Assembly: GCA_039683575.1 (NCBI GenBank)
Contig: JBDKRC010000235.1
Coordinates: forward strand, 4,100 to 68,099
Reading direction: 5' to 3'
DNA length: 64,000 bases
Source: Armatimonadia bacterium
GTDB taxonomy: Bacteria > Armatimonadota > Zipacnadia > Zipacnadales > UBA11051
Shown: positions 1 through 34,657 of the stretch, piece after piece
How the letters are laid out: every line of letters starts with the position of its first letter
Numbering within the stretch: position 1 is the stretch's first letter
The notes under the pieces: model-generated
Seen by the model: the letters and a program-made list of their open reading frames with translations, nothing else
Told to the model about the DNA's origin: nothing
Database searches by the model: none
Translations under genes and position numbers: made by a program

Positions 1-3000
1 CAGCAGATATCGTAGTCTCCATCTGTCAGCCGCTCAAGTGCGGCCAGAACGCTCTCACGATTCTCCTGTTGCACGAGGCCCTTGCTGGCGACTAGGCGCT
101 GCAGTTGCAGCCACCAGTAACGCTGGTCCGGACGTGCATCATCGCCTCCGGCCGCGTCTTCACAACAGGGCAGGAACACCTCGACGAGATGGTCTAGGCC
201 ATTCTCGAGTTGTAGCCGCGCCTCGTCCAGATAGTAGTCCGGCTGGCGGGCGAGCTTGCACTCAAAGAGCCGCGCGTTGAGCTGCAGCCGTCCGTCCTCA
301 CTCCGGAGAACCACTAACCAGAGAAGGTCGGGGCGCGTAGAGGTAAGTGAAGTGTCGAACCAATGTTGGTATGCGTCAAGGGAGATCAGCTGGTCGCAGA
401 TGGCGTCCGCTGGCGCATGTAGGAGCTTCCTAGTCAGGGCGTATGCCATAAAGTCGTGAATGTGCTGTCCGAGCCCCGTAGCTCGTACCAGCGACAGGCC
501 GGACAACTGCTGGGCTTCTCGCAGCACGCTCTCGGCCACCGTGTCGTAGGTGGCTGCGTCCCAGCCGCCGTAGAGATCCCTGATGGCCGGCTTGAGTCGG
601 CGCAGAATGTCACTCAGCCGGAACTGCTCGGTTGAGACAGTGTAGTTTGCTTCTCCGTGGGAGCCGACCCCGGATCCGAACCCGATGATCTCGCGCACGG
701 CGGCGCCGGAGGCGGCGTCCCCATCTCCCGCCCTACAGGACAGCAAGCGCTCGTCCACGCATGGGTCAATGCAGACGACCCAGTCGGCTCTCTGATGTAG
801 CCCGTCAACCACTGTCTGCCACGGCGCATAGTCTCCGCTACCCATCACCAGGTGATGGGCCTCGGGTACCGCATCGGGATGGCGCAACCGCGCCATGATC
901 TCCGTGTACTCGCTACCTAGCAGGAACTGGCGGTTACTGAGCACCCGCTCGCGACGCAGCATCTGTCCCGGGTCACGACTGGCACAGAAGGGCTTCTCTA
1001 GCACGGGGAACTTGAGCGTCCTCTTGAGCGCGTAGTACTCGGGGACCGTCTCGAACCTGCCGCCCTCGTCACCAGCGGCCATGAAGCCGTTCAGGATAAC
1101 GACGTCGACATCCAGGCTGGCAAGCAGCGGCAGGAACTGTTGCTCCCGCTCTCGTCTCTTCTGCCCATCGCTTCGCGCCGTCGCCAGCAGGCGGTGTGCC
1201 GCGGAAAGCTCGACACTCCGGTAGTGTTTCAGCGAGGCCTGGCTTTCGGCCGCTTCCCAACGGGCCCGCCACTCGCTGAGCCACGTTTTCACTTCGCCTT
1301 CGTCACCGGACTCGCTGAGGATGGTCACAGACAGGGCATAGGGTGCCCTCCCCGGATCGCGCTTGTCGCACACCTCGCGCAGGTAGCCGTCGAGTGCCGC
1401 GATGAGTGGCTGCACGTCGCGGTTCTGGTACACCGCAAGGCTCAGGCCGTCATCGGCTTGTGGGTGCAGCTCCCGGTAGTCGCTCAGGATTCGCCTGATG
1501 AGAGTTGCCTCCCGGCTCTCACGAAACAGCTCGGCATCAGGGATGTCCTCCTCCTCGAAGGCGTCATAGCGCAGCAGCAAGCGGGTCGTCAGGCTGGCCT
1601 CACCAGGCTCTACGCACCCCAGCCGGTGCACAAACCCTTCGCCGCTCACGCTCGTGTCAAGCTTGCAGTCCTGGTTCACCAGCAGGCCGCAGAGCGGCGT
1701 GTACAGGGAAGCCAGATCGAGGTAGTTGCCCCAGACGATGTTGCGGAAGGATCGTGTGCCTGGAGCCCGCAACTCCCGGGCCGCCAGCCGGGGGAAATAC
1801 ACTCGCAGGTACTGGGCCTGCGCCTGGATCATCTCCAACAGCGCTGGATGAAGCAGCGTGACAATCGCGGAGGGTTCGAAACGCTCCCAGAACCACTCGT
1901 TGTCGTCGCGTTTGCGGTCGGCGATGAGGAGGAACGCGCGGAAGAGGAGCGGCCCGAGGAAGCTATGGCGCCCGGTCTCGTCGTGCAGGTAGTAGCGGGC
2001 CGCCTCGCGGTATGCATGGCTCAGAGGCTGCCAGGCGTCCAGCAGGGCCGCGTGGAGCCCGTGGTCACGCGCGTGCATCAGGAACTGCACGTACTGGCGC
2101 CCCAGCTCCTCGATCCGCCACAGCAGAGGGTCACTGGCGGGAAGGCCCGGAGCGTCGAGGAGGTTCAGAACGCGGCTGTCAGGGCTCTCCAGGCCCTGCT
2201 GCAGCACGCGGGTCGTCTCCTCCGCGTCCTTGGCCAGCATAAGCTCTTCGTAGTATGGCACCGTGAAGACAGGCACGTGGCACACCAGCGGATCCGCCAT
2301 TGCTCCCGCCGCCCATTCCAGCATCTCGTCTGCGATGCGGTAGGGATGGATCGCCGGGAGGCGCCAGGCGAACTGCCGCTCCACCGGCTTGCCCAGTCCA
2401 TCCCCATCGATGCTGACAGAGAAAACGAGCGAAGGCTCGGCGCTTCCCGCTGGCACACACCTGACCCAATCGCCGGTCAGCGCCACCTCCAGAGCCACCC
2501 CCCGGTCATCTCCCACCAGGTTGCTTAGCTCCAGACCGTCACGCAGCCATTCCTCGACACCGCCGAGGAAGCGGGCCAGCATCTGCCCTGCGTTCCACTC
2601 CTGGTCCTTCTTGGTGTCTCCCCCCAGGTCGTGCTTGAACTCGCTTGTGCGGATGCTAAGGCTCACCAGTGCTTCATGCGGCACAAGCCCTGCGCCTGCA
2701 GCCTCAGCCTTGTAGCTCTCCAGGGTCCGCCAGAGGCCCGTCAGCAGAACGTCGAGTGGGCCCCCGCTAAGCTTGCTCACCGTGTCGCGAGTCCTGGGCT
2801 TGCGGGGGCCCTTGAACCCGAGAATCTCATCGCGGATCGCCACGTAGTCGCAGCCCAGCAGGCGACCACGCAGTTCCGCACGGTTGCTCTGCGCGTACTC
2901 CTGAACTGCCTGCACGAACTGCCGGTTGTCCGCGAAGTCGCCCTTGGCGTCGGGAGAGAACCAGTCCTGTTCCGGCTGGTTCCCTTTCTCCTGGAGAAAC

Positions 3001-3776
3001 GCGTCGATGGCTCTGAGTGCCTTGTCGCGAGGGCGTGCCTCCATGAAAGCATCGTAGGAGTAGAAACCGACTGCGTCATCGAGATATGGGCCGAAAGAGA
3101 CGTGGCTGCCGAAGCGGTAGCCTGTGAAATGTGGCAGCCTGTGCAGACCGAGCGAGCGTAGCAGTAGTCTCTCAGCGTCACGACCATCCTGGCAGGCCGC
3201 CAGGTCCATCGTCTCCAGCAGGCTGCTAACTTGCAGAATGTCTGCCAGTCCCCGATCTACCAAAGGCTTGAGTACCTCGTCGAAACGCTGGTACGTGTCC
3301 GTCTCGTAGGCGATATGCGCGCCGGTCAGAACCTCCCGCACCCAGGGCGTGAAGCTGCCCTCCATTTCCTGCCCCCACACCACCTCCGGGCCGCAGTGGT
3401 GAAAGTCTGCGAGGCCGCTGCGGTCGGTTATCAGGTCCACCCCCACCAGGACGGTCAAGGGACCTAGTCCGTTGCGGACCGCCGTCAGGCTGCCCTGGTA
3501 CTCACACCATTCATCTCGCTCCTCGATCCGCGCCGCTGCGCTTCGCTCGGCTTCTCGAACCGGCTGCCCCCACTGCTTCCGCAGCTCTCTGGCTATCTTG
3601 AACAACGGCCGTGGGAGCCCTGGGCCTGCCAGCCACTCGTCCTCCAGCAGCCGGCCGACTTCCAGTGTGGCCTCGGCGGGCAACGCCGGAATGACCACCA
3701 GGACAGCGTCATCCGTTGCCTGTCCGGCGGCCTGATCGCGGATGTAGCGGCATACCGAACGCGCGAAGAGCTTCAT
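1..3776 (-). CDS. Large uncharacterised protein, partial (at least 1258 aa; 3' end beyond window start). Last gene of the defence operon.
   Basis: Minus-strand frame with ATG at 3776-3774 overlaps the TGA stop (3775-3773) of the upstream gene. The track lists no stop-bounded minus ORF in this frame between 1 and 3776. Hand translation of the segments checked (3776-3701, 1199-1131) gives an uninterrupted sensible protein (MKLFARSVCRYIRDQAAGQATDDAV...). The 462-aa plus-strand ORF at 1140-2528 is its antisense shadow. No family recognised. Confidence 0.6.
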   Translation of the reverse strand, partial: MKLFARSVCRYIRDQAAGQATDDAVLVVIPALPAEATLEVGRLLEDEWLAGPGLPRPLFKIARELRKQWGQPVREAERSAAARIEERDEWCEYQGSLTAVRNGLGPLTVLVGVDLITDRSGLADFHHCGPEVVWGQEMEGSFTPWVREVLTGAHIAYETDTYQRFDEVLKPLVDRGLADILQVSSLLETMDLAACQDGRDAERLLLRSLGLHRLPHFTGYRFGSHVSFGPYLDDAVGFYSYDAFMEARPRDKALRAIDAFLQEKGNQPEQDWFSPDAKGDFADNRQFVQAVQEYAQSNRAELRGRLLGCDYVAIRDEILGFKGPRKPRTRDTVSKLSGGPLDVLLTGLWRTLESYKAEAAGAGLVPHEALVSLSIRTSEFKHDLGGDTKKDQEWNAGQMLARFLGGVEEWLRDGLELSNLVGDDRGVALEVALTGDWVRCVPAGSAEPSLVFSVSIDGDGLGKPVERQFAWRLPAIHPYRIADEMLEWAAGAMADPLVCHVPVFTVPYYEELMLAKDAEETTRVLQQGLESPDSRVLNLLDAPGLPASDPLLWRIEELGRQYVQFLMHARDHGLHAALLDAWQPLSHAYREAARYYLHDETGRHSFLGPLLFRAFLLIADRKRDDNEWFWERFEPSAIVTLLHPALLEMIQAQAQYLRVYFPRLAARELRAPGTRSFRNIVWGNYLDLASLYTPLCGLLVNQDCKLDTSVSGEGFVHRLGCVEPGEASLTTRLLLRYDAFEEEDIPDAELFRESREATLIRRILSDYRELHPQADDGLSLAVYQNRDVQPLIAALDGYLREVCDKRDPGRAPYALSVTILSESGDEGEVKTWLSEWRARWEAAESQASLKHYRSVELSAAHRLLATARSDGQKRREREQQFLPLLASLDVDVVILNGFMAAGDEGGRFETVPEYYALKRTLKFPVLEKPFCASRDPGQMLRRERVLSNRQFLLGSEYTEIMARLRHPDAVPEAHHLVMGSGDYAPWQTVVDGLHQRADWVVCIDPCVDERLLSCRAGDGDAASGAAVREIIGFGSGVGSHGEANYTVSTEQFRLSDILRRLKPAIRDLYGGWDAATYDTVAESVLREAQQLSGLSLVRATGLGQHIHDFMAYALTRKLLHAPADAICDQLISLDAYQHWFDTSLTSTRPDLLWLVVLRSEDGRLQLNARLFECKLARQPDYYLDEARLQLENGLDHLVEVFLPCCEDAAGGDDARPDQRYWWLQLQRLVASKGLVQQENRESVLAALERLTDGDYDIC

Positions 3777-5458
3777 GCTTGCCTCTCAGCTTCCACAAAA
3801 GGGTTCTGGACCAAGGAGTCGGCGTCAGACAGCCGCACGAGGAAGCCTGCCGCCTCCAGCATGCTCATGAACCAGGCCTCGGCCTCCCCGCCGAGGGTCA
3901 GCAGACAGGTTCTGCCACACCAGGCACTGGACGCACCCAACCGCCGGTCATCGACCGCGAGACCGTAGTGAGCGAACATCAGGTCCTTGAAACCCTCGTA
4001 GGTCACGCGCTTCCCGGGTGGCAGCAGTGACAGGACTAGGTAGCGCAGCAGATGCTCGTTGAGAACGAACCGGGCGCCAGGGCCCTGGCGGGGCACGATC
4101 AGCCCCAATCGCTTGGCCACCGATAGGAAGAGCTTGTGCCCATAGCGCGTGTCTGCCTCCGGGTACAGATCGTTGGCCTGCTTACCGTTTGCTTCGACGG
4201 CATACTTCCGTCTGGCCACGGCCTCCTCGATCTCGGGATGGCGCAGCGCCTCCCGGATGAGGCGCTGTAGCCGGCTGACACAGCGCTGCGAGATGCGTTT
4301 GGCGGGCGTGGAGTCGCCGCTCGCGTCGGAGAGCGCCCACACGAACCCCAGTGGTCCAGCATACTCCCGCACCTCCGCGGCCCACTCGACATAGCGGGCG
4401 CTCTGAGCGCACAGGCTGCGCAGGAGTTGGAGGGCGCAGGCTGTCTGCATCAACTCGAGCCGCTCGATAGGGTCGACGGCCGCTGCGCAGACGTGCACCA
4501 GTTCCAGTGCAAACAGCCACCCCTCGGGCCAGCCCTCGCTCGGGCACCAGCCGCAGTCGCTGAAACGGGGCTGCCCCCCGTCGTCACAATCGGTCTGCTG
4601 CGATGTCTCCGGCTCAATAACCTGATCAATGAAGCGTGCCAGTGCTCCAACACCCTCCGGACACTGACCGGTCAGTACCCGCCGCAGGCCTACCTCCAGG
4701 GCATCGCGCACTCGCTCAGGCGAGCGTTCGTCTTCGCCGAACCCGATGTCCGCTTCTTCACACCAGCCGCGGATCTGTTCAGGGCTCTGGCGCAGCGCGT
4801 TGCAGAGCTGCAGGTACAGCACCTCGCCACCGCGCGCCACGAAGCGATGCCGTCCGACTGTGAAGAACTGGGGCATCTTCTCCGCCACTTCCGCCCACGT
4901 CGTCACCCCCCTGCGCCGAGCCTCTGTCTCGTTCCATATGGTGTCACCGGCAAGTACTTCGGGGCAGATCGGCGTGAACGCCTGAGCACACCACGTCCGC
5001 CGCCCTCCTATAGCCTGGAACCCAAGGAAGAGGTTCTCCAGCGTCTGGACTACCTCGCGCGGTGAAACGCCCTCGGGCGGCCTCAGTCTCTCTGGACTCT
5101 GTAGCTCAGCCAGCAAGCTGATGTAATGCTCTCTGTGGCTGCTGTGGCGGCTCGCAAGCTTCGATGCCCCCATAAACGCGAACAGCTTCAGGTTGAGACG
5201 CGCTCGCGGGCTGTATCGCAACGGCTGGCCCTCGGGCCAATCGCATAGACTGTCCAACCCCGGTATTGTCCTGTCGACTGGCAGAGAGGTGTTTCCGATC
5301 CGCTTTGGTGAGGCGGCAACCAGCAGCAGCTCGATCAGCAGCTCCGGAACCGTCTGGTCCGCGAAAAAGCGCCGCCCGAACAACTGAACGGCGGGGTTGG
5401 CGTCCTGGCCCTCAGCCGACAGTATGTCGAGTGGGATGCTCGGGAAGGGCGTAGGCAT
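3773..5458 (-). CDS. Uncharacterised protein (about 561 aa), translationally coupled to the upstream kinase gene.
   Basis: ATG at 5458-5456 shares one nucleotide with the TGA stop of the 1553-aa gene (TGATG). The protein reads MPTPFPSIPLDILSAEGQ... The track ORF 3773-5614 extends N-terminally into the upstream gene. No recognisable motif. Confidence 0.6.
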   Translation of the reverse strand: MPTPFPSIPLDILSAEGQDANPAVQLFGRRFFADQTVPELLIELLLVAASPKRIGNTSLPVDRTIPGLDSLCDWPEGQPLRYSPRARLNLKLFAFMGASKLASRHSSHREHYISLLAELQSPERLRPPEGVSPREVVQTLENLFLGFQAIGGRRTWCAQAFTPICPEVLAGDTIWNETEARRRGVTTWAEVAEKMPQFFTVGRHRFVARGGEVLYLQLCNALRQSPEQIRGWCEEADIGFGEDERSPERVRDALEVGLRRVLTGQCPEGVGALARFIDQVIEPETSQQTDCDDGGQPRFSDCGWCPSEGWPEGWLFALELVHVCAAAVDPIERLELMQTACALQLLRSLCAQSARYVEWAAEVREYAGPLGFVWALSDASGDSTPAKRISQRCVSRLQRLIREALRHPEIEEAVARRKYAVEANGKQANDLYPEADTRYGHKLFLSVAKRLGLIVPRQGPGARFVLNEHLLRYLVLSLLPPGKRVTYEGFKDLMFAHYGLAVDDRRLGASSAWCGRTCLLTLGGEAEAWFMSMLEAAGFLVRLSDADSLVQNPFVEAERQA

Positions 5459-8400
5459 CAGTCGACCTCCAGACGATGCTCGCTGACTGTGAACCGTTGC
5501 TGGTGGAACATACGGTTGGTCCGCAGCCGCACCAGGATCAGGTCTGGGCCGGTCTCGGGTGGGTAGGCATGCAAGAGCTGACCCTTGAAGCGCTCCAGAC
5601 GGTCGGCGTAGCACGCCTGTAGCTGCCGACTGATCTCACCTCGCTGGCGTGCCATAACGTAGTCGAGGAAAGACAGGTTCAACACCAAACACACCGGCTC
5701 AAGCCCGTGCTCACTAGTGAGTTCCAGCTCTCGCCTCTTGGCGCCACTCCCTCCGTCCACCGTCTGCAACGACAGGTCGAAGTCACTCGTGGGCACCGAG
5801 GTCAGGACAATCTGGGCGCTTTGGCGCACCTGAGACGAGCGACGGCTCAAGGTCATATGCAGTCTCTCATCAGGCAGAGGCCCCTCGGGCAGGCGTACAC
5901 CGGTAAGGTGCTCTTGCAGCACCTGGAATAGCCGTGTCTGCAGGAGCTTGCGCTCACGGTAGTCCAGTTGGGTCGCCTGCTGCCATGCGGCATGCCGGAT
6001 GATCATGGGCGAATCGAGGTATGCCGTGAGGTAGCGCTCGCTTTCATCTTCGTCAAAGGCGTAGAGGAAGAACAGGACCCGGCGAGCCTGCTCGCGAGCA
6101 ACCGCCTGCGCCTCCTCCTCCGTGATCCCCCTACCGGCGCCCGCGTCGCATAGCTGTTGGAAGACATCCTGCAGTCCCTCGATCACCAAGGGGGTATTGC
6201 GTGTCTCTATCGACTGCCACAGGCGGCGTTCCCACGCCGCACAGAGCCGACGGCCGAACCCTTGAGCCCGCGCCAGGCGCACGGCCTGCAGCTGCAGGGC
6301 CGGGAGATCGATGTTCCTTCCGTCGTCGCCGAAAAACCTGTTGAAGAACATATATTCCGGTCCCGGCGAGGAGGCCGATCTGGCGACCATCGAGGCCGCC
6401 TGCGCACAACTGAGCCCGGAGGTCAGCATATATGCCAGGTGAGCCGACGCCTGCCGGAGGGTGAGACGCGCGCCGTACTCATACATACGGCGGTATGCCA
6501 GCAGAAGACGCTGGGTTACGAGACCGGGATGCTGCTGCAACAGTGCGGCATTCTGACGGATGGGGCATCCGCTTCGGCATGCCTTCCCCTCGCAGTCATC
6601 CCAGTTCGCGGGCTCCAGGAGACGGCGGAACAGCCTCTCCACCAGCGGGAGGTTGTCCATCTTGGAAAGGTTGATGATCTGTAGCGGGACCCCGTGGAAG
6701 TGCAGTGGCCTTGGTCCCGCCTGCTCCAGCGCGGTCAGAAGTGCGCTCTCGGTCTCCCGCCAGTCCGCCTTCAGCGCCTGCTCGTGCTGCCGGAAGGTCT
6801 CCAGCAAGGTACCGCTGTTCGAGACCAGCAGGAAGCGAGGCCCCCCCGCGGCCAGCATCTCCGCCAGCAACTCCGCACGCTCTTCCCCGTCCCACTCGCT
6901 TAGGTCCTTTACGAGCGACGTGTCCAATGCTTCGACTTGGCTGTCTTCCCTGCGTTCTAGGGGCGCCTGCAGCGGGCGATGGAGGTGCTGGTTGCGGAAC
7001 CGCTTCAGGCATTGCAGCAGGATGATGGACTTGCCGTCTCCAGCGTGGCCCGTTAGGACCACATGTGTCCGTGTTTCTCCTAGCAGAAGCTCGTTGATGA
7101 CATCCGCCAGAGGGTGGGCAACCTGTACCGATCCGAACAACGGGTTGGTCGCCTGCGACTCGGCCAGAGAGTTCTTGCTGCCACCCCGGCGACAGTGCAG
7201 GCTGTTGAGGTAGGCAACGAAGGCGTTGCCCTCAGGCTGCTCCTGTTCGAGCTGCGGGCCGGAGAACGGTGCAATCTGCTCGGGTTGATCACCGCGGGCT
7301 ATTTCAGTCGGGGCTTCCCGGTCTGTGCGGGTTGGTTGCACGTCTCGTATGGGGGTGAGAGCCGCTTCCTCGCGTTCGGGCACTCCAAGGGGCGCCAGAT
7401 CGGCCGCGGGTGTCTCAGCGCTCGCTTCGACCTGCTCTGCTTCGACCTGCGGAAGCGCTCGTTGCAGCGCCCGCAGCATCTCGGCGGCAGTGCCGAAACG
7501 CTTGTTGGCTTCTGTGGCTACAGCCTGGGCGAACCATAGCTCAAGCTCCGGGCCGAGGGCGCGTCGCTCCGGCGGCAGCGGCGCCGGCTGCACGCCAACC
7601 TGCAGCTGCGTGTACGGCGTCCGCCCACAGTACCACTCGAAAAGGGTCACTCCGAGAGCAAACAGATCTCCCTGTTCGCAGTAGTCGCGATCTTGCCCCG
7701 ACCGCAAGTCCGGCGGCACGTAGCCCTCAGTGCCCTGGTATGGCGCAATCTTCGGGAAGCTGGCGCATCCAAAGTCCACGATGACTGGCAGCCGGCTGTC
7801 GGTAAGCAGGATGTTCTCAGGCTTGATGTCGTTGTGCAGGATGGGCTCAGCACCGTCGTCGCCCCGGTGGCCATGCAGGGCCGCCAGCGCTTCCAGGAGC
7901 TGTGTTGCCCAGGCTGCGAACTGATCAAGGTCAGGCAGTAACCCGGCGCTGATCTCGTTCCGCAGACTCCGCTCGGAAAGCCGCTGGAAGGCGATGTAGA
8001 AGCGTCCGTCCCCTTCCCAGGTGCTGTGATTCTCCACCCGGACGATCCCGGGGTGGTGCACGGCTCCGGCAAACTGCTGCTCCTCGAGCCCGTGCCACTG
8101 CGGCACATCTCGGCCAAACAGCTTCACGACCACCAGTCGGCCTCTTGGGCCGACAGCCCGGTACAGTTGCGCCTCTACCCCCTGCTTGATGAGACACTCG
8201 ATCTCGTAGAGGTCATTGCGGGTGCCTGGCTCCAGGACCGGGTTCAGCACGGGAAGCCGCGGTGGGGTATCGTCGCCAGCCAGGCGCGCAAGCACTGCCG
8301 CTGCCGTAGCAAGACGCTGGGAGGGTTCTTGACGGACCAAGTCCGAGACCAACGCGCGCGCCCGTGCGGACACTCCCACCAGGGCCTCCGCTTCAACCTC

Positions 8401-10119: not shown

Positions 10120-10132
10120 ACCGAATGGCTCC

Positions 10133-11287: not shown

Positions 11288-11358
11288 ACAGCAAGTCCTC
11301 AAGGAGATCTCCGCCAGCCTGGCGGGTGCCCACCACGGTTAGCTCCCGATGGGTTCCT

Positions 11359-12189
11359 TCAGAGAGCGCAGATCAGGCAGCCCCGATCTGCGCTGTCGTC
11401 CGCATCGTCGAGTACCTCGCCAAGCGAGACACCGGCGCGGAAGCCGCCTGCACGTTCGCGACGCTGCTCGAACTCAGCCTCGATCTGTGCTACGCGTTCC
11501 GGTCGCGAGAGCTCCTCCAGGCTTTCACCCTGCACCCAGGTGTAGCGCTGTCCTGTGTCAGTGTCGGCCTTCTCATACTCCATCGCCTGCTTGAAGAGAC
11601 CCGGGTGTTCTCTCATCAGCCCAACCCACTCGCGGCGTTGCTGGAAGAAGCAGAAGTAGCACCCCGAACGCGAGCGCCAGCGGTAGTAGTCTGGGAGGCC
11701 CAGGCCGCTCTCCTCCAGTATCCGCAGCACACCGGCTCTGTTAATGCCCTCCTCGATGAACGGGAAGCACGCGACTATGTTGGGCTTCGTTGACAGATAG
11801 CCCTTCCTGTGCCGCTCGTCTGCACGAATGCCCACGTAGGTGACGGCGGGGGTCTCACCGATGAACTTCTCAAATGGCTTCAGTTTGAGATACTCCGTGC
11901 ACCACCGGATCTGCGGTGATGGCAGATAGCCACGACGTATGCTGAGGAGGTCATCGAAGCCCATCCCGTCGTGCTTCAGGCGGATGATCGGTCTGCCGAG
12001 ATAGACTTCCAACCGGTCGAGGTAGTCGTACGTCTCGTCAAGCTCCTTGTCCGTATCACAGAACACGTACTCCATATCCGGCATGCGGTCACGCAGGTGG
12101 ATGGCCAGCGCTGTGCTGTCCTTGCCGCCTGAGAGCGAGAGGATATGCCGGGTGTTTCCGGCTTGCTGAGGCGTGCCGCTGTCACTCAT
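11359..12189 (-). CDS. PAPS-reductase-family ATP pyrophosphatase (DndC/SspD/BrxP-like, short form about 276 aa).
   Basis: PP-loop motif ILSLSGGKDSTALAIHL, with C-terminal Cys pairs (CYFCF, CLIC). Start taken at MSDSGTPQQ, overlapping the ATPase stop by a few nt. Confidence 0.75.
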   Translation of the reverse strand: MSDSGTPQQAGNTRHILSLSGGKDSTALAIHLRDRMPDMEYVFCDTDKELDETYDYLDRLEVYLGRPIIRLKHDGMGFDDLLSIRRGYLPSPQIRWCTEYLKLKPFEKFIGETPAVTYVGIRADERHRKGYLSTKPNIVACFPFIEEGINRAGVLRILEESGLGLPDYYRWRSRSGCYFCFFQQRREWVGLMREHPGLFKQAMEYEKADTDTGQRYTWVQGESLEELSRPERVAQIEAEFEQRRERAGGFRAGVSLGEVLDDADDSADRGCLICAL

Positions 12190-15100
12190 CTTCTGTGGTG
12201 TCTCCGATCTTGCCCGCGGCAAGCTTGAGGGCCGCCTTCACGACATGTGCAGGCAGCTTCGCTATCGCGGGATTGAGCGCTTTCATGATCTTGTCCGACA
12301 GAGCCTGCGCGCGCTGCATCTCGGCGGGCAGGAGTTCCGGCAGGTCCAACGTGGTAACCGAGGCGCTCCGCATCGTAGCGGCTGCGCTTCTCAGCAGAGC
12401 CCCCACCATCTCCGCTGCTTCCGGGAAACGCTTGCGGTCGAGGTCGCTCCAGTTGCGTGGGGGGCGTTGAGCGACAAGCGCAAGCACCGTCTCGACCCCC
12501 TCAGCTGTGTCGTCGACCTCCTGCATACGCGCCAGCAGAGCCGCTAACCGAGGTTCTCTCACCCACGGCCGTAGGCGGTCGCCGAGGCCTCGCAGCTCAT
12601 CCCAGCCCGCCTCCCCTGCTGGTAAGTTGCAGGCGCGTAGTAGAGTGTCACGGGCCGAGGCGATGGCTGTAGGCGCGACTGCCCCCCATTCCCGAAGGCA
12701 CCCGTTAAGGCGCTCAAAGAACTTCTGCACCTGGCCGGTTTCCGTCTCGTCAGCCCCGAACGCAGGGAAGCCCAGCGCGCCAGGGAGATCCGCGAAAAGC
12801 AGTTGCTCCGGGGATCGTGCCGCGGCAAAGGCCTCGCGCAGAGCAACTACCGGCGCGCTCAGTTCCTGAGTGTGCCAGGCCAGTTCCGGGAGGCTGCGCA
12901 CCATCCGGAACAAGGCCCGCACCACCGGCAGAGTCGCTGAGTTCACCTGCAGACTGCGAGCCAGTCGCCCTACCACCTCCGCGCGGGCGCCTGTAACCTG
13001 CCCACCCGCTATGGCGTACAGCTCCGGCCTGCGCATAAGCACTTCGAAGTCCGCGATGCCGACCTCCGGAAGGAATGTGCCTTCGCGGTACAGTGTCGTC
13101 TCATCTGGGTAAGCCAGCATAAAGGCACACAGCAGCACCGGGTGCAGGCCCTCTGGTACGCCAATGGGCGGGGCGGCCAAGCCGGCGAAGAGTCCATCGA
13201 GTTGGACCGGCTCCAGCCCATCGGCCAGAATCTGCCGGTCTAGGAACTCCCAGACCGAAGCGAGAGCAGCATCGCTCGTACGGTCGGGAGGGTGGAAGCC
13301 CCAGCGGCACGAGTCGTCCTCTCGGTGCAAGCCGGTGACCAGAAGGACGGACTCGTACATGCTGCGCTCAGGAGGGTAGCCTTCAAGCCCCAACAGGGGC
13401 TCCCCCGCTCGCGTCAGCATCCTCTCGATCAGGTTGCGGCGGGCAGCGGTTGCGGCCGCGGACAGAGTCCTCCTTGCGATGAGCTCGTTGCGGATGCGTG
13501 GTGACTTGGGGAAGAGGCTGTCACAGACGTCTGAGACCAGCTTGGACACGTCAGTGGGTGTGCGGACGGCCTTCTGCTGTCCGCCCCAGAACCAGAGACA
13601 CTGGCTGCCACGCGGCGCCGGCCGTGGATCCAGGAGGCCATCGAGGTCCCGCAGCAATACCTGCTCCGCCTCGCTGATGCGGATTGAGATCTCTCGACGG
13701 GCCACTCGGTCGTCGCGAAGCTCTGGGGTGTTGTCCCAGACCCAACGCAGCGCAGCTAGCTCCTGAACAGCCGCTCGCAGCTCACCTATCTCTTGCGGCA
13801 CCGCCACCAACAGGTCGTGCCGCGCCCCGGCACCGGCCGTGGCGACGGCGACGAACTCATCAGACCGCTTGAGCGAATAGGCCAGGCACACTGCGACGTG
13901 GGCGGGGGCCGTCTCGGAGGCTTTCCAGTCCAGAGACAGTTCAGATGGGTCGTCGAGGTAAGCCACGGCCAAGTGCCGCAAGGCGCCAGTCTCGAAGCTG
14001 TGCCGGCGTGCGACCAAAGGACGCGGGGGCAGGTAGTGCCTGATGTTCTCCGCCAGGCTGAGCCTGTCCCGCGTGTGGGTAGCGCCCTGCTCAAGACGCT
14101 CATCGATGTCGACGTCACTGCCTTCCCAGATCTGAAAGGCGTCTGTGAATGTGCGGAACGTCAGGACAGACTTCTCACGCAACTGAGCGAGGCTGTCTTC
14201 TAGTTTTGCCGGCGGCTTGGTCTGGTCTGAGAGAACGAGTGAAAGTACCTGCTGATGGGCCTGTAGGTGGCTGAACTCGCCCAGAGCATTGAGGATCCCC
14301 GTTGACTTCACGAGCGCCTTGTGGAGATCGGTCAGGTCGCTTCTGCGGTCAAGCACGTCCACAGCCTCAAGCCAACGCTTCGCCTGCGGGTGCCGGTACA
14401 GGCCGGTCCCGAAGTTCGCGACGAAGTAGTCGAAAAGGTCAGGTAGCCGGACGAAGGCAGGCGTCCCCCCCTCCGCTGTGTGAGCCCGGAGAAAGTCCTG
14501 CAAGGCATACGGTTCCTGGCTGCTCAGATAGGCGAAGAGAGAGCGTTCGTTCTGCGCAAAGCGCCGGAACAGGTAGGGCAAGGCCACTAACGTAACGGGA
14601 TGGAGTGGATAGGCTCTGACGGCCAGGCGCTCGAAGTCGCGGGGGGGCATCCCCGGAGGAGCGACGACTGGTGCGGCGGCGCGCGCCACCGCCTGCACTC
14701 GCTTCGCCAGTGACGCCGGCAGTTCCCGCCCGGTCGGCCGGAGAGCGCTCGCGATCATCCGCACAACCTGATCAACCGGCTCGAGGAACGGAACGTCGTG
14801 GAAGCGCCCGCCTATCTTCTCCCATTCGCGACGGGTTACCGCATCCAGGTGCTGGCCGTATTCCTCGAACGCCTGATGCAGGAAGCCGAGGAAGAGAACT
14901 GGCTCGACGCCGCTGCGGCTGGCGTATTCGGCGAGTTCCTGCAGCACGAACACATCACCGCGCCGAGGGTCTCGGGCTGCGTACTCGAAGAGCTTGCCCA
15001 GCTCGTCAACAATGACTAGGAGGCCTGTGTAACCTTGTGCTCGGGCAACAGCGGCCAGCTCCTGCAGGGCACCGACGACGTCCCGGCTGTCGGCAAAGGC

Positions 15101-15610
15101 CCCCGCTTGCAGGGCCTTCAGCAGCGCGGCCAAACGCTTCCTTAGTCGCGCGGTAGCGGCGCCCTCCAGCCCTGCGATAGCAGCCAACATGCCCTGTAGC
15201 AGGCAGGCCGCAGCCGGAGCCCGCCGGGCCGTCACCAGCACTGGCAGCATAGTGCCGTTGCCATTGGCGCGAAGGCATCCTTGAGCAAGAGTCTCGGCGA
15301 GGTCGGGGGCAGCCAGCAAAAGCTTCTGCCTCGCCTGGTCCCCTGCGGCGTCTTTGAGGCAGAGCAGGCGCGTCAGGAACACGGCGAAGGCTGATTTGCC
15401 GACGCCATAGGGGCCGGTAATCGTCCAGGCTCGCGCTACGGAGCCCTCACTTAGCCCCTCTGCGAGACGGTGCAAGGCCTGCCGTGCATTGGCCGTCAGG
15501 ACATAGTCGCCGTTAGTACCGTTGCCGCGCGCATCCTGCTCGAGGCTAACCGACCGCAGGAACCTACGCCCGACCTCCACGTACTGATCCAGCGACTTCT
15601 GCATCTCCAT
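12182..15610 (-). CDS. Large P-loop ATPase, SspC/BrxC (PglY)-like (1142 aa).
   Basis: Walker A WTITGPYGVGKSAFAVFL (about aa 68) and Walker B GLLVIVDELGKLF (about aa 200), then a roughly 900-aa helical body. Its start shares one nt with the stop of the upstream gene. Family assignment is by architecture and context, not by alignment. Confidence 0.6.
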   Translation of the reverse strand: MEMQKSLDQYVEVGRRFLRSVSLEQDARGNGTNGDYVLTANARQALHRLAEGLSEGSVARAWTITGPYGVGKSAFAVFLTRLLCLKDAAGDQARQKLLLAAPDLAETLAQGCLRANGNGTMLPVLVTARRAPAAACLLQGMLAAIAGLEGAATARLRKRLAALLKALQAGAFADSRDVVGALQELAAVARAQGYTGLLVIVDELGKLFEYAARDPRRGDVFVLQELAEYASRSGVEPVLFLGFLHQAFEEYGQHLDAVTRREWEKIGGRFHDVPFLEPVDQVVRMIASALRPTGRELPASLAKRVQAVARAAAPVVAPPGMPPRDFERLAVRAYPLHPVTLVALPYLFRRFAQNERSLFAYLSSQEPYALQDFLRAHTAEGGTPAFVRLPDLFDYFVANFGTGLYRHPQAKRWLEAVDVLDRRSDLTDLHKALVKSTGILNALGEFSHLQAHQQVLSLVLSDQTKPPAKLEDSLAQLREKSVLTFRTFTDAFQIWEGSDVDIDERLEQGATHTRDRLSLAENIRHYLPPRPLVARRHSFETGALRHLAVAYLDDPSELSLDWKASETAPAHVAVCLAYSLKRSDEFVAVATAGAGARHDLLVAVPQEIGELRAAVQELAALRWVWDNTPELRDDRVARREISIRISEAEQVLLRDLDGLLDPRPAPRGSQCLWFWGGQQKAVRTPTDVSKLVSDVCDSLFPKSPRIRNELIARRTLSAAATAARRNLIERMLTRAGEPLLGLEGYPPERSMYESVLLVTGLHREDDSCRWGFHPPDRTSDAALASVWEFLDRQILADGLEPVQLDGLFAGLAAPPIGVPEGLHPVLLCAFMLAYPDETTLYREGTFLPEVGIADFEVLMRRPELYAIAGGQVTGARAEVVGRLARSLQVNSATLPVVRALFRMVRSLPELAWHTQELSAPVVALREAFAAARSPEQLLFADLPGALGFPAFGADETETGQVQKFFERLNGCLREWGAVAPTAIASARDTLLRACNLPAGEAGWDELRGLGDRLRPWVREPRLAALLARMQEVDDTAEGVETVLALVAQRPPRNWSDLDRKRFPEAAEMVGALLRSAAATMRSASVTTLDLPELLPAEMQRAQALSDKIMKALNPAIAKLPAHVVKAALKLAAGKIGDTTEDE

Positions 15611-16562
15611 TATGAGCCATTTCCTGCGCCGAAGTAGCGATCAAGCAACGCCAAGGCGTCGAATTCGCGACGGCGGTAGATCTGCTTCAGGCCTGCCGTC
15701 TCATCAACAGAGACTGCGCCGTCGGTCAGTTCCTCGAGCTCCTCTACGTACTCGATGAGGCTGTTCTCATCCAGCTTGAAGGCCTGACCGGGACTTCCTT
15801 TTCCGTACAGGCACTGCTGGATGCCCAGTGTGCTCTGGGTCTCGCGAGTACGACTGAAGTGCTGGTCAAGGGCAAACGCAAACACGGGCGCCGGCAGCGA
15901 CGGCTTCGGGCCGATGCCAAAGGCGTACAGGTCTCCGTCAGCAGATGGCTGGATCAGCCGGAGGGATAGCAGGGGACAGTCGAAGCTCTCCTCGGGCAGC
16001 GCTTCTCCGATCTCGGCGCGCGGGGCCGCATAGGTGCGAAGAAAGCAGTCGAAGTCGCGGGACAAGGACGAGCGCGCAACCTTCAGCGCCCCCTTCTCTG
16101 CAACAGAGGCCAGATGGTCTACAGCTTCACGCCGGGTGAAATCGGGACGATGGTAGTGACAGAAGAGCAGCTGCCACGTGGTGCAGACACTTGGGTTTGA
16201 GACCAGCATCCAGTGGATGAGCCAGAGGGAGGCGTCGTCCTCAAGGAATGGGTCCCAGCCTTCTGGCAACAGCAGAAGGCGCGCCATAGGTGTGGGCTGC
16301 AGTGGCTGCGCTTTGCCTCGCGGCGCACCCGGCACCGGTTCTATGAGCTGCGTCACTGTGCACCAATGTCTTATGCTCTGCACCATATTCTTGCCCACCC
16401 CCAGGTGAACGAGCGCATCCTCATCGGAGAAGATGGTTGCCCGCTGCTCGACGCCCCTTACCCCCTTCTCAAGCCAACCATAGCGGAAAGCAAAGGTCTG
16501 GTGGCCGGAGAAACGATAGGACACCTTGCCCTGCGTGGTCTCATTACTATCGGCAATGATCA
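15610..16562 (-). CDS. SspB-like DUF4007-type protein (first gene of the operon).
   Basis: The conserved block SYRFSGHQTFAFRYGWLEKG resembles the GHETF..RYGWL signature I associate with DUF4007/SspB. A GGAG RBS sits 9 nt before the ATG at 16562 (MIIADSNE). The track ORF extends to 16734 with a less likely upstream start. Confidence 0.5.
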
Positions 16563-17641
16563 TCTCGTCAGCTCCGGGACGGGGCTTGCCTGCCGCAGCA
16601 GCTAGGGGGAGGTAGACGGTCGTGCAGAGACCGACGGGGAAGAACGGTGTATCCCCCTCGTAGACCGCAACCTCGGCTGAAGAAGGCGCAATGGCTGTTT
16701 CGACGGCTGTCGAGCCCGGACCTTCCTCTCCCATGCACTCCAGGTAGCGTCACGCGCCACATACTCGCTCAGCAATCTGGGACAGCTTCCTCCGTCCGCG
16801 TCAGAGCTCGGGAACGCGCGAACTCAGCAGAGTCACAATGGATGGTGTCCGGCTCCTCATACAACTCACGCGCTACGCGTAAGCAGTGAGGCTCACAAGC
16901 CCACGCCGCCGCCGAGCCGGAACACCTCATCGTCCACCGTGGCGGTCTCACGGCACTCGCCAGATCGTGCTATCGGTGTCTCGCCCTCGGCTTGGGTGAC
17001 TGGGCCGGCGGGCAGCGCAGGGCCGACCGAGCCGCAAGAGCCCAAGATGGGCACTACCGCCCCGTGACGAGGAATTCTGGCCTGTCTGGGGTCGAGGCCA
17101 TCCCGAGGATCCACGGCCACCCTCGGCTTCCCAAGTTACCCAACCCGAGGATTCTCGGCTTCCCTCGGCTTGGCCCGCACTCCCCCAGGCGCCCCACTAG
17201 AACGCCTGGCCCAGGCCGCACACATGGGCGGAACGGGGGCCCCGGACCGGCGGCCCAGGGAGCCCGATCCCCGAGAAATCCAAGGTCAACCGATGCTCCT
17301 CCTGGGCCAGCCCGAACACACCCTCCATCAGAATCACCACTCAACGTCCCTACCGGCGTCCGGAACGGGGCCCCAAGGCCTGGTCCCCCGGGGGCCTGAT
17401 CCTGCAGGGCATGCCACACACAGCAGCGGCCGGATTCCGTCAAGACATACTTCCGCCGGCCACGCAAGCGGTTGCGTCGGGTCCTCTTTGGCCTCCTATC
17501 CCCCCGGGGGTCTCGGCGGCGGGGGGAGGTGGAGTCCCGATGGGACCCACACCGTCAGAACCTCGAGACGAAGGGGTGAGCCAGCCCCATTCGTCGCAGT
17601 GTGACGACGGCGGAGAGGCCCCGAAGTGCCATCCGACCGAT

Positions 17642-23854: not shown

Positions 23855-24337
23855 ATGATGCGGACAGCGTCACACCGGCTGGCCCTCGCCATCGGGTTCG
23901 ACCGCCCATTGAGCATCGAGGACGTGGAGGAGATCTGCGACCAGGGCATCGCCGATAGCGGAGACTTTCTCCCCGACCCCGAGGACCCGACGGCACATAC
24001 CTACTGCGGCGACCGCTGGGCGGTCGAGTACAGCACCGGGCGGCCACGGCTGGTGGAGGCCATCGAGGTCGGCCCCCACCCCATCGGGCCTGCCACTGCG
24101 AGGGCCGAGCGGGCGTTCGCCCTGATCATCGACATGGTCGATTGCGTCGGCCCGCCGATGACCCAGGACTGCGTAGACCGGATCCGCAGGGAGAGCTGGG
24201 GGGATAGGTTCGGAAGGGCCGCCCAGAGCGATGCCACGGACCAGTTGTTGGACCTGATCTATCGTGACGGGGATGCCCCCGATTCCGAGCGGACCGTTCC
24301 CACCGAGGAGGTGGATCAGAATGAGGAAGAGCGATGA
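23855..24337 (+). CDS. Hypothetical protein (160 aa).
   Basis: AGGAGGAA lies directly before ATGATG (MMRTASHRLALAIGFDRPLSIEDVEEICDQGIADSGDF...). Confidence 0.4.
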   Translation: MMRTASHRLALAIGFDRPLSIEDVEEICDQGIADSGDFLPDPEDPTAHTYCGDRWAVEYSTGRPRLVEAIEVGPHPIGPATARAERAFALIIDMVDCVGPPMTQDCVDRIRRESWGDRFGRAAQSDATDQLLDLIYRDGDAPDSERTVPTEEVDQNEEER

Positions 24338-25568: not shown

Positions 25569-25823
25569 TCCGTCCCGTCCGCGTTGGGACGTGGTCGGGT
25601 GTCGCTGATTCGGAGCTGGCCAGCAGGGCATCGCAGGTCCCGCTGAGGTAGCGTTACAGAGATGATCCGGGCACCCCGCGCCGACGTGGGTACGGACTGG
25701 GGAGGCCGTTGCATACGACGTCCAATCCCACATGAGACTTTCGCCTTGGGCCCGGGCATCGTATGATAGACCGCGGCAATGGACCCAAAGCCGATTGCCA
25801 GCAACTGGAGGAGGTACCCGCAG

Positions 25824-33260: not shown

Positions 33261-33311
33261 CTGGGTCTCCTCTCGTCCCCGGGGTGGCATCGCTCCTCTG
33301 GCTGTGCGGCT

Positions 33312-34594: not shown

Positions 34595-34657
34595 GGGGTG
34601 GTTACAGGTGCCCGCAATGATATGATGATATGGTTACGACGTCGCCCTTTTCGCCGC

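What the first reader, a model, noticed from the sequence alone, without database searches (positions are those of the whole stretch)
1..16750. Seven-gene operon joining an Ssp/Dnd-type phosphorothioation module to a PglW-like kinase and two large unknown proteins: candidate novel BREX/Ssp-hybrid defence system
Seven minus-strand genes are packed with 1-nt (TGATG) or 4-nt (ATGA) start/stop overlaps or gaps under 75 bp.

The first four have the order and domain content of sspB-sspC-sspD-sspA: a DUF4007-type protein, a 1142-aa BrxC/SspC-like P-loop ATPase, a short PAPS-reductase PP-loop enzyme, and a cysteine desulfurase.

The canonical SspE or DndFGH/SspFGH effector is replaced by a 1553-aa NERD, pseudokinase, kinase and NTPase protein, which is a hallmark of BREX type 2 (Pgl). 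It is followed by a 561-aa protein and a protein of at least 1258 aa with no motif I can recognise.

BREX type 4 uses a PAPS reductase (BrxP), and BREX type 2 uses PglW with a methyltransferase. A sulfur-modification module wired to a PglW-like kinase is not an arrangement I know as described.
Basis: partly seen in the sequence, partly recalled or inferred. Interest (0 to 1): 0.9.

Follow-up and report, generated by a model that had tools for sequence, protein, structure and literature searches.

The report
Ssp phosphorothioate defence with kinase-fused SspF
This operon is a DNA-phosphorothioation restriction-modification system (SspABCD plus an SspFGH-type restriction module) whose SspF subunit also carries a sulfur-reading domain, a nuclease and a tandem kinase. 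It is a recurrent, experimentally untested variant of a known defence system, not a new BREX/Ssp hybrid.

Summary
The seven tightly packed minus-strand genes are real. Genes 1-4 are sspB, sspC, sspD and sspA.

The last three genes are not unknown. The C-terminal 590 aa of the 1553-aa protein is an SspF core. The 561-aa protein matches SspG. The protein of at least 1258 aa matches SspH, has a conserved PD...ExK nuclease motif, and is cut by the window edge before its HerA/FtsK motor.

The unusual part is the SspF subunit. It reads: sulfur-binding domain (SBD, closest to SBD-Hga bound to PT-DNA, cavity residues conserved), NERD nuclease (intact), pseudokinase, active kinase, SspF core.

The same gene order recurs in 22 related loci from several phyla. 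There SspF occurs as core only, SBD-core, NERD-kinase-core or SBD-NERD-kinase-core. The nearest relative, another Armatimonadota MAG, lacks the kinase insert.

No PglZ, PglX or BrxL is present.

A wHTH-NERD-pseudokinase-kinase fusion to "DndF" was described computationally in 2024, and SBD-kinase fusions were noted in 2023. I found no experimental work and no explicit link to Ssp.

Verdict: a variant of a known kind, of moderate interest.

The parts
15610..16734 (-). sspB (DUF4007 protein). The true start is probably near Met58, because residues 1-73 lie outside every SspB/DUF4007 profile.
   Evidence: Pfam DUF4007 9.7e-84, residues 75-368. PADLOC SspB 1.5e-88. 73% identical to SspB of locus L006.
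12182..15610 (-). sspC (BrxC/PglY-related P-loop ATPase, 1142 aa). Walker A is GPYGVGKS at residue 66.
   Evidence: PADLOC SspC 1057 bits, full length, versus BrxC 955 bits. Motif position.
11359..12222 (-). sspD (PAPS-reductase-family PP-loop enzyme). The SGGKDS motif is at residue 31. The likely start is the ATG at 12189.
   Evidence: PADLOC SspD 3.1e-109, full length; BrxP only 2.8e-8. Pfam PAPS_reduct 9.6e-9..
10133..11302 (-). sspA (NifS/IscS/DndA-type cysteine desulfurase). It has the PLP-lysine motif SAHKLYGPKG and the Cys-loop GSACGTG.
   Evidence: Pfam Aminotran_5 4.4e-78. PADLOC SspA 2e-135. Motifs.
5458..10119 (-). sspF-type gene encoding a 1553-aa five-module protein: SBD, NERD, pseudokinase, kinase, SspF core. 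It is identical to GenBank MEN6643977.1, 'MAG: protein kinase [Armatimonadia bacterium]'.
9685..10119 (-). Module 1 of SspF (residues 1-145): sulfur-binding domain (SBD), a reader of phosphorothioate DNA.
   Evidence: AF2 model pLDDT 88. Foldseek top hit 8H0L, SBD-Hga bound to PT-DNA: E 3.7e-10, TM 0.74-0.83. phmmer versus 8H0L 1.2e-17. H23, K24, P74 and H77 align with the Hga cavity residues H25, K26, P76 and H79 and are kept in 20-22 of 22 relatives.
9250..9624 (-). Module 2 (residues about 166-290): NERD PD-(D/E)xK nuclease with an intact catalytic set.
   Evidence: Pfam NERD 1.3e-12. D208, E221 and K223 are invariant and E206 is kept in 21 of 22 full-length relatives.
8266..9087 (-). Module 3 (residues about 345-618): pseudokinase. 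The HRD aspartate is Ala482 and DFG reads NFD.
   Evidence: Pfam Pkinase, 2 stretches. The HRD position is Asp in only 2 of 22 relatives.
7405..8232 (-). Module 4 (residues about 630-905): predicted active Ser/Thr/Tyr kinase.
   Evidence: K666, D764, K766, N769 and D782 are invariant in 22 of 22. The closest named family for residues 191-751 is NCBIfam MAD6: 349 bits, below its 460 cutoff. PglW scores 178 bits.
5461..7239 (-). Module 5 (residues 961-1553): SspF core. It comprises a P-loop NTPase (Walker A G1024-K1030-S, with Asn1101 at the Walker-B position), a large helical lid with a Cys-rich insert, and a C-terminal alpha+beta domain.
   Evidence: PADLOC SspF 7.8e-27 and four further SspF profiles; DndF only 0.0045. 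46-57% identical to 600-800-aa proteins. AF2 pLDDT 84. Motifs.
3773..5458 (-). sspG-type gene (561 aa).
   Evidence: PADLOC SspG 3e-14 plus three more SspG profiles, C-terminal 160 aa only. 47-53% identical, full length, to the gene in the same position in L002, L005 and L006.
1..3776 (-). sspH-type gene, first 1258 codons only; the 3' end lies beyond the window. A PD-(D/E)xK nuclease motif (D1150 ... E1172-x-K1174) is at window 249-335. About 500 further residues, including the HerA/FtsK ATPase, are expected from orthologues.
   Evidence: PADLOC SspH 1.3e-17, residues 983-1234. Alignment with four complete orthologues of 1765-1794 aa shows a conserved RPD...ECK motif and a Walker A about 150 aa past the cut. 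Orthologue Pfam hits are DUF87/HerA/TrwB; PADLOC gives DndH 1.4e-59.

Best explanation
The locus is a phosphorothioate (PT) based restriction-modification system of the SspABCD-SspFGH kind.

Modification (by homology): SspA mobilises sulfur from cysteine. SspD activates it with ATP. SspB and SspC select and process the sites. Together they write single-strand PT marks on the host chromosome.

Restriction (by homology): the F-G-H proteins form a complex whose main nuclease is the PD-(D/E)xK domain of SspH. The complex is driven along DNA by SspH's HerA/FtsK motor, which lies off the window, and it damages DNA that lacks PT.

The special feature, shown here, is that the F subunit has an N-terminal sulfur-binding domain with an intact sulfur cavity. 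Between that domain and the SspF P-loop core sits an inserted cassette of an intact NERD nuclease, a pseudokinase and an active kinase.

Inferred mechanism: the SBD reads PT on self DNA and keeps the complex off. On unmarked DNA the F subunit licenses SspH cleavage. The NERD nuclease and the kinase then act either as a second effector layer or as a phosphorylation switch on the complex.

Which steps rest on what: the gene and domain identities and the synteny are shown. The PT chemistry and the restriction of unmarked DNA are carried over from characterised SspABCD, SspFGH and DndFGH. The direction of the SBD signal and the kinase's substrates are inference.
For: - Full-length, high-scoring SspB/C/D/A matches.
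- The F core, G and H match several SspF, SspG and SspH profiles each. Orthologous H proteins carry HerA/FtsK and match DndH at 1.4e-59.
- The RPD...ECK motif in H is conserved.
- The SBD is supported by both fold and sequence, with the cavity residues conserved. Its closest solved relative, SBD-Hga, binds Ssp-type hemi-PT CpsCA (PMC10602919).
- The operon is tight.
- The order sspB-C-D-(A)-F-G-H recurs in all 22 related loci examined, from Bacillota, Atribacterota, Chlorobiaceae, Spirochaeta, Kiritimatiellae, Verrucomicrobia, Gammaproteobacteria, Thauera and Armatimonadota, whichever form F takes.
- At least 22 clusters at 50% identity hold the full five-module protein.
- SspFGH restricts non-PT DNA and is toxic without SspBCD (PMC8092258).
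- DndFGH nicks while translocating, and PT represses its ATPase (PMC11662687).
Against: - Nothing here is experimental.
- The SspF, SspG and SspH profile matches cover only parts of the proteins: the first half of the F core, the last 160 aa of G, and about 250 aa of H.
- The H motor domain is outside the window.
- In one related locus, L004, sspC and sspD look fragmented while F, G and H are intact. If real, that sits badly with strict PT gating.
- Known SBD-nuclease fusions attack PT-DNA rather than spare it.
Confidence: 0.75

Rival explanations
1. PT-activated rather than PT-inhibited. The SBD senses PT, and binding switches the F subunit ON, as PT stimulates SspE and DndI, or as SBD-nuclease type IV enzymes cut PT-DNA. 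The kinase and NERD modules would then fire in response to PT status, for example against foreign DNA carrying a different PT pattern, or as an abortive-infection trigger.
For: - All characterised SBD proteins are PT-dependent nucleases. The closest one, Hga, is an SBD plus PD-(D/E)xK enzyme that restricts PT-DNA.
- SspE and DndI are PT-stimulated.
- G5 has an intact NERD nuclease directly after its SBD.
Against: - The protein sits in one operon with a PT writer, so PT-triggered cleavage would be self-destructive unless it is sequence-discriminating.
- Most relatives are SBD plus F core with no nuclease in F at all, which points to a regulatory reading role.
- Canonical SspFGH and DndFGH are restrained by PT, not activated by it.
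Confidence: 0.15
2. Two independent neighbours. SspABCD is an orphan or epigenetic modification module, and F-G-H is a stand-alone DndFGH-like counter-invader system that does not use PT and merely shares a defence island.
For: - Rakesh et al. argue that DndFGH is commonly decoupled from the Dnd modification genes (PMC10853773).
- 84% of sspBCD loci lack a known partner.
- L004 appears to keep F-G-H with a broken sspC and sspD.
Against: - The start and stop codons overlap or lie 13 nt apart across the A/F boundary and throughout.
- The order is conserved in 22 loci from distant phyla.
- A PT-reading domain is fused to F in the majority of close relatives.
Confidence: 0.07
3. One reading: a novel BREX type 2 / Ssp hybrid in which a PglW kinase replaces the Ssp effector and works with two unknown proteins.
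For: - The NERD / pseudokinase / kinase order is the same as in the N-terminal half of PglW (PADLOC PglW 1.8e-52; PMC12839542).
- SspC is a BrxC/PglY relative.
Against: - No PglZ, PglX, BrxD, BrxHI or BrxL is present in the operon.
- The PglW match stops at model position 790 of 1403.
- The C-terminal half is an SspF core, not PglW's wHTH and inactive-STAND half.
- The kinase region scores higher against MAD6 than against PglW.
- The two 'unknown' proteins are SspG and SspH homologues.
Confidence: 0.03

Closest known systems
SspABCD-SspFGH of Vibrio anguillarum FF-93 (Wang et al. 2021, mBio, PMC8092258)
   Same: - The modification genes sspB, sspC, sspD and a cysteine desulfurase are followed by a three-gene restriction cassette.
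- F has a Walker A motif.
- H has an FtsK-like C-terminus, seen here in the orthologues.
- PADLOC's SspF, SspG and SspH profiles hit the three proteins.
   Different: - Canonical SspF profiles are about 525-600 positions long and start at the P-loop core. Here F is 1553 aa, with an SBD, a NERD nuclease and two kinase domains in front.
- The matches to the canonical profiles are partial and moderate (E 1e-14 to 1e-27).
- Related loci carry two further conserved genes after H. The Vibrio three-gene clone did not need them.
DndF variants with fused wHTH, NERD, inactive and active S/T/Y kinase (Rakesh, Aravind & Krishnan 2024, NAR, PMC10853773; restated in PMC12839542)
   Same: [quoted passage not shown]
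- Their DndF core features are seen in G5: a canonical Walker A, Asn in place of the Walker-B Asp, a large helical lid with an optional Zn insert, and a fast-evolving alpha+beta domain.
   Different: - That work does not mention SspF/G/H or pairing with SspABCD, and it does not call the fused wHTH a sulfur-binding domain.
- G5 matches the PADLOC DndF profile only at E 0.0045.
- I could not verify that their data set contains this family. The supplement held has no such data.
- My fold searches place the P-loop nearer STAND/ORC ATPases than kinases, and only weakly.
PglW of BREX type 2 (Pgl)
   Same: NERD nuclease, then pseudokinase, then active kinase, in a protein of about 1500 aa that belongs to a modification-based defence system.
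   Different: - PglW's C-terminal half is an RNAP-alpha-CTD-like domain, three wHTH domains and an inactive STAND domain. G5's is an SspF core with an intact Walker A.
- G5 has an N-terminal SBD.
- The partners here are Ssp proteins, not PglX, PglZ, BrxD or BrxHI.
SBD-containing PT-dependent nucleases Hga, SprMcrA and ScoMcrA (PDB 8H0L, 7CC9, 5ZMO)
   Same: - G5 residues 1-145 have the same fold and the same sulfur-cavity residues.
- Hu et al. [quoted passage not shown]
   Different: Those enzymes are single-chain type IV nucleases (SBD with HNH or PD-(D/E)xK) that attack PT-DNA. Here the SBD is part of a multi-subunit system encoded together with the PT writer.
MADS protein kinase MAD6 and MAD8 (NCBIfam NF047741; PADLOC mads_6 and mads_8)
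   Same: - G5 residues 191-751 match MAD6 end to end (349 bits, E 4e-104; PADLOC mad6 4.5e-60).
- The HerA part of an orthologous H protein matches mad8 at 1.9e-17.
   Different: - The score is below the MAD6 equivalog cutoff of 460.
- From my own knowledge, MADS is methylation-based and MAD6 is a separate protein. Here the module is fused into SspF of a PT system.

Membership tests
SspABCD (PT modification module) | SspB: DUF4007 protein | tested here: met
   Pfam DUF4007 9.7e-84; PADLOC SspB 1.5e-88.
SspABCD (PT modification module) | SspC: BrxC-related ATPase of about 1100 aa with a Walker A motif | tested here: met
   PADLOC SspC 1057 bits over the full length; GPYGVGKS at residue 66.
SspABCD (PT modification module) | SspD: PAPS-reductase-family PP-loop enzyme | tested here: met
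   PADLOC SspD 3.1e-109; SGGKDS at residue 31.
SspABCD (PT modification module) | SspA: cysteine desulfurase | tested here: met
   PADLOC SspA 2e-135; Aminotran_5 4.4e-78; PLP-Lys and Cys-loop motifs present.
SspABCD (PT modification module) | Produces single-strand PT (for example CpsCA) in DNA | not testable with these tools
   Needs LC-MS/MS or PT-seq.
SspFGH (PT-based restriction module) | SspF: P-loop protein with Walker A, homologous to the SspF profiles | tested here: met
   Five PADLOC SspF profiles, best 7.8e-27, covering the first half or so of the core. Walker A is invariant in 22 of 22.
SspFGH (PT-based restriction module) | SspG homologue encoded directly after F | tested here: met
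   Four PADLOC SspG profiles, best 3e-14, C-terminal 160 aa only. The position is conserved in every related locus.
SspFGH (PT-based restriction module) | SspH: large protein with an FtsK/HerA-like C-terminus | tested here: inconclusive
   SspH profiles hit residues 983-1234 (1.3e-17). The C-terminus is cut off by the window. Four complete orthologues, 27-57% identical over the shared part, have DUF87/HerA domains.
SspFGH (PT-based restriction module) | Adjacent to sspBCD | tested here: met
   Same operon, 13-nt gap between sspA and F.
SspFGH (PT-based restriction module) | Restricts non-PT DNA and is toxic without modification | not testable with these tools
   Known for the Vibrio system only (PMC8092258).
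BREX type 2 (Pgl) | PglW, full length: NERD, two kinase domains, then a wHTH x3 and inactive-STAND C-terminal half | tested here: not met
   Only model positions 9-790 of 1403 match. The C-terminal half is an SspF core.
BREX type 2 (Pgl) | PglZ phosphatase and PglX methyltransferase in the system | tested here: not met
   None of the seven proteins has a PglZ or PglX match in Pfam, PADLOC or NCBIfam. The nearest methylases are more than 18 kb away, beside an integrase.
BREX type 4 | BrxP (long PAPS reductase, often fused to DUF4007), PglZ and BrxL | tested here: not met
   SspD matches BrxP only at 2.8e-8, versus SspD at 3e-109. No PglZ or BrxL.
DndFGH | Sequence membership in the DndF/DptF, DndG/DptG and DndH/DptH families | tested here: inconclusive
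   DndF scores 0.0045 only. There is no DndG hit, and no NCBIfam Dpt hits. However, an orthologous H C-terminus matches DndH at 1.4e-59.
Sulfur-binding domain (Pfam PF26340 DNA-SBD_ScoMcrA) | SBD fold with a hydrophobic sulfur cavity (His-Lys on helix 2; Pro and His on helix 4) | tested here: met
   Foldseek 8H0L E 3.7e-10; phmmer 1.2e-17; H23, K24, P74 and H77 conserved. PF26340 is precomputed on relatives P0013 and P0029.

The most novel reading that the evidence does not exclude
The SBD-NERD-pseudokinase-kinase-SspF protein turns the phosphorothioate state of the DNA it is bound to into a phosphorylation signal. Under this reading, PT reading by the SBD gates the kinase. The kinase then switches the F-G-H nuclease/motor complex, or host or phage targets, on or off.

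The real functional unit would be an undescribed nine-gene system: sspBCD(A), F-G-H, and a second, non-catalytic SspB'/SspC'-like pair that is conserved just downstream of H in related loci.

This would be the first kinase-signalling layer, and the first dedicated PT-reader domain, shown in a PT restriction complex.
Probability: 0.25. Interest if true: 0.65.

Novelty: new variant of a known kind. Interest (0 to 1): 0.4.

Why it matters
How SspFGH and DndFGH complexes tell PT-marked self DNA from foreign DNA is still unclear. Here, and in most close relatives, the F subunit carries a bona fide sulfur-binding domain. That gives a concrete, testable answer for this branch: F is the PT reader.

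The kinase-bearing form adds a PglW/MAD6-type NERD and tandem-kinase cassette inside the same protein. This links three defence families (Ssp/Dnd, BREX type 2 and MADS) through a shared, mobile module.

The cassette's presence or absence between near-identical operons is a natural experiment on what the kinase contributes. A cultured carrier exists: Desulfofundulus thermosubterraneus DSM 16057, locus L007.

The finding is not a new class of system, and the domain architecture has already been noted computationally.

Tried and rejected
1. Finding the source contig, to complete sspH and see what follows it. The exact-protein look-up found nothing. The first genome-contig scan found no relative. 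Only the GenBank protein id and the contig length (68,981 bp) were recovered.

3. A test that SspG is a DUF4007/SspB-like triple-wHTH protein. Profile-profile comparison of 18 SspG orthologues against 15 SspB orthologues gave probability 0.8%. Not supported at the sequence level.

4. PDB sequence searches with G6 and G7 gave no hits. G5 hit only ordinary kinases, apart from the SBD.

5. Pfam and NCBIfam on G6 and G7 gave no hits. Only PADLOC recognises them.

6. Supplementary data of PMC10853773, to check whether their kinase-DndF examples are this family. The file held has no such data.

7. A promoter and terminator scan upstream of sspB, and a tRNA scan, found nothing useful.

8. The BREX reading was rejected for lack of PglZ, PglX and BrxL, and because the C-terminal half of the kinase protein is SspF.


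Full report
OBSERVATION. The seven minus-strand ORFs are present as described. Their junctions, read from the sequence, are:
- sspB/sspC: TAATG, a 1-nt overlap
- sspC/sspD: ATGAGTGA, an 8-nt overlap
- sspD/sspA: a gap of about 70 nt
- sspA/gene 5: a 13-nt gap with a GGAG motif
- gene 5/gene 6: TGATG
- gene 6/gene 7: ATGA

The last ORF is open for 1258 codons up to base 1, so it is cut by the window.

MODIFICATION MODULE. Genes 1-4 are sspB, sspC, sspD and sspA beyond reasonable doubt.
- sspB: DUF4007 9.7e-84 and PADLOC SspB 1.5e-88.
- sspC: 1057 bits over the whole length, slightly better than the related BrxC model at 955 bits.
- sspD: 3.1e-109, against 2.8e-8 for BREX-4 BrxP.
- sspA: SspA/DndA 2e-135.
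- The Walker A of SspC, the PP-loop SGGKDS of SspD, and the PLP-lysine and catalytic Cys loop of SspA are all present.

THE THREE 'EFFECTOR' GENES ARE SspF/G/H-TYPE.
- PADLOC matches residues 965-1265 of the 1553-aa protein to SspF: five profiles, best 7.8e-27 when the C-terminal 604 aa are scanned alone. DndF scores only 0.0045.
- The 561-aa protein matches four SspG profiles, best 3e-14, over its C-terminal 160 aa.
- The truncated last protein matches three SspH profiles, best 1.3e-17, at residues 983-1234.
- Aligning G7 with four complete orthologues (1765-1794 aa) shows a conserved PD-(D/E)xK motif (RPD1150 ... E1172-C-K1174; window 249-335). It also shows that a HerA/FtsK-type Walker A follows about 150 residues past the point where the window ends.
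- Those orthologues hit Pfam DUF87/HerA/TrwB, PADLOC DndH (1.4e-59) and mad8.

ANATOMY OF THE 1553-aa PROTEIN.

(i) Residues 1-145. These are 38% identical to the N-terminus of a common family of proteins of about 770 aa whose remainder is the SspF core. An AlphaFold model built with 14 such relatives (pLDDT 88) has as its top PDB match the sulfur-binding domain of Hga bound to PT-DNA (8H0L, E 3.7e-10, TM 0.74-0.83). The SprMcrA and ScoMcrA SBDs follow. By sequence alone, 8H0L is the only PDB hit (1.2e-17). The Hga sulfur cavity is formed by H25, K26, L75, P76 and H79 (PMC10602919). These align with H23, K24, A73, P74 and H77 of G5. H23, K24, P74 and H77 are kept in 22, 21, 21 and 20 of 22 full-length relatives. 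Pfam's newer family PF26340 (DNA-SBD_ScoMcrA) is precomputed on several relatives.

(ii) Residues about 166-290: a NERD nuclease with D208, E221 and K223 invariant and E206 kept in 21 of 22 relatives.

(iii) Residues about 345-618: a kinase fold in which the HRD aspartate is Ala482 (Asp in only 2 of 22 relatives) and DFG reads NFD. This is a pseudokinase.

(iv) Residues about 630-905: a kinase with K666, D764, K766, N769 and D782 invariant, so predicted active. Residues 191-751 fit NCBIfam MAD6 better (349 bits, below its 460 cutoff) than PglW (178 bits). The PglW models match only through their position 790 of about 1400.

(v) Residues 961-1553: the SspF core. It has an invariant Walker A (G1024-x-A-G-x-G-K1030-S/T), Asn1101 at the Walker-B position, a long helical lid with a Cys-rich insert, and a C-terminal alpha+beta domain.

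HOW COMMON IS IT, AND IN WHAT CONTEXT.

The protein is GenBank MEN6643977.1, 'MAG: protein kinase [Armatimonadia bacterium]', on a 68,981-bp contig.

A search of 1.8 billion cluster representatives returned at least 22 clusters (50% identity) with the same five-module layout at 1500-1536 aa. It also returned many entries of about 1340-1420 aa that start at the NERD domain.

Among the 120 closest F-core relatives, about 69 carry the SBD sequence motif and only 3 carry a kinase.

I examined 22 related loci (L001-L006; 17 more).
- Wherever the upstream flank is present, the order is sspB-sspC-sspD-(sspA)-F-G-H. In L018, sspD-C-B lie on the opposite strand.
- F occurs in four forms: core only; SBD-core; NERD-pseudokinase-kinase-core; and SBD-NERD-pseudokinase-kinase-core.
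- Carriers of the kinase form include the cultured Desulfofundulus thermosubterraneus DSM 16057 (L007), Thauera sp. WH-1 (L013), and MAGs of Atribacteria, Syntrophomonadaceae and Bacillota.

The nearest relative of the whole window operon is another Armatimonadota MAG (L006). Identities are SspB 73%, SspC 66%, SspD 70%, SspA 64%, F core 56%, G 53% and H 57%. Its F is only 762 aa, with no NERD or kinase.

Comparing segment by segment:
- G5's F core is closest to that kinase-less protein: 57%, against 37-43% to the kinase-bearing relatives.
- Its SBD is closest to other kinase-less proteins (48-52%).
- Its NERD and kinase parts are 41-49% identical to those of the kinase-bearing relatives.

The cassette therefore behaves as a mobile insert between the SBD and the core. 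This last point is inference.

WHAT IS ALREADY KNOWN.
- SspABCD-SspFGH was established experimentally in Vibrio anguillarum. SspFGH damages non-PT DNA, is toxic without SspBCD, and blocks phage DNA replication. No kinase or SBD was reported (PMC8092258).
- DndFGH forms a 2:2:1 complex with translocation-coupled nicking, and its ATPase is repressed by PT. A phage kinase can inactivate it by phosphorylation (as summarised in PMC11662687).
[quoted passage not shown] The same group later pointed out that PglW shares this tripartite arrangement (PMC12839542).
- None of these papers, as far as the text I could search shows, connects the architecture to SspF or SspABCD, or identifies the fused wHTH as a cavity-intact SBD. 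I found no experiment on it.

MECHANISM.
- Shown: the gene and domain identities, the intact catalytic and binding motifs, and the conserved synteny.
- By homology: SspABCD writes single-strand PT. F-G-H restricts unmarked DNA through SspH's nuclease and motor.
- Inferred: the SBD on F is the PT reader that restrains the complex on self DNA. NERD and the active kinase provide a back-up effector or a phosphorylation switch.

The main rival is the opposite polarity, in which PT binding activates the protein, as for SspE, DndI and the SBD nucleases. I rate it at 0.15. A merely adjacent, PT-independent F-G-H module is unlikely given the SBD fusion and the synteny (0.07). The BREX-hybrid reading is effectively excluded (0.03).

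One observation cuts against strict PT gating. In locus L004, sspC and sspD look fragmented while F, G and H are intact. This may be a long-read assembly artefact.

VERDICT. The locus is an SspABCD-SspFGH-type system with an elaborated F subunit. That architecture recurs in nature and has been catalogued computationally under the DndF name, but it has not been tested experimentally and has not been linked to Ssp. Novelty: a variant of a known kind. Interest: moderate, 0.4.

Noticed in passing
Beyond window start (not in window). Seen in L001 19496-22367, L002 21567-24590, L005 19241-22307, L006 19152-22289, and in L008, L009, L010, L012, L013, L015, L016, L018, L024, L026, L030 and L032.: Directly downstream of the sspH-type gene, nearly all related loci carry a second, divergent pair. 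One is a DUF4007-like protein of about 280 aa (Pfam DUF4007 about 1e-6; PADLOC SspB about 1e-6). The other is a protein of about 1430 aa with weak SspC-like N-terminal matches (1e-10 to 1e-12). No second SspD is present. The Vibrio SspFGH clone worked without such genes. Their role is unknown. The window operon probably continues into them.
   Followed up: partly
L004 2756-9900 (locus of P0166, 3.7-Mb contig): In this relative, the kinase-F, G and H genes are intact. However, sspC survives only as two N-terminal fragments and the PAPS-reductase call is 123 aa. Either these are long-read indel errors, or a restriction module persists without its modification module.
   Followed up: partly
window 15610-16734 (5' end, 16564-16734): The first 57-73 residues of the annotated sspB ORF lie outside all SspB/DUF4007 profiles. 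The L006 orthologue is called from a position equivalent to about residue 60. The real start is probably Met58, giving about 317 aa.
   Followed up: partly
window 32040-39128: A small mobile or restriction-modification-like patch. It holds a C5 cytosine methyltransferase (34658-35764, minus strand; PADLOC MTase_II 2.9e-94) next to two unannotated ORFs (33578-34594 and 32040-33404). It also holds a tyrosine integrase (36664-37797, minus strand) and an N6/N4 DNA methylase (37929-39128, plus strand).
   Followed up: no
window 62458-63996 (minus strand; the ORF's upstream end is 5 bases from the right edge, so the gene may begin beyond the window): An SNF2-family helicase fragment with strong matches to the C-terminal parts of DpdE (9e-124) and ZorD (5.8e-121). 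It is possibly part of another defence system lying mostly outside the window. Two small unannotated ORFs follow it (60956-62457).
   Followed up: no
window 45265-57942 (plus strand): A run of large secreted-type proteins: an alpha/beta hydrolase, an FGE-sulfatase-domain protein, two leucine-rich-repeat proteins, and two proteins with 3-keto-disaccharide-hydrolase and laminin-G domains. They are unrelated to the defence operon.
   Followed up: no
window 24264-26618 (plus strand): An AAA ATPase (434 aa) is followed by a separate 279-aa ORF with a partial Peptidase_M41 match. Together they look like a split or divergent FtsH-like pair.
   Followed up: no
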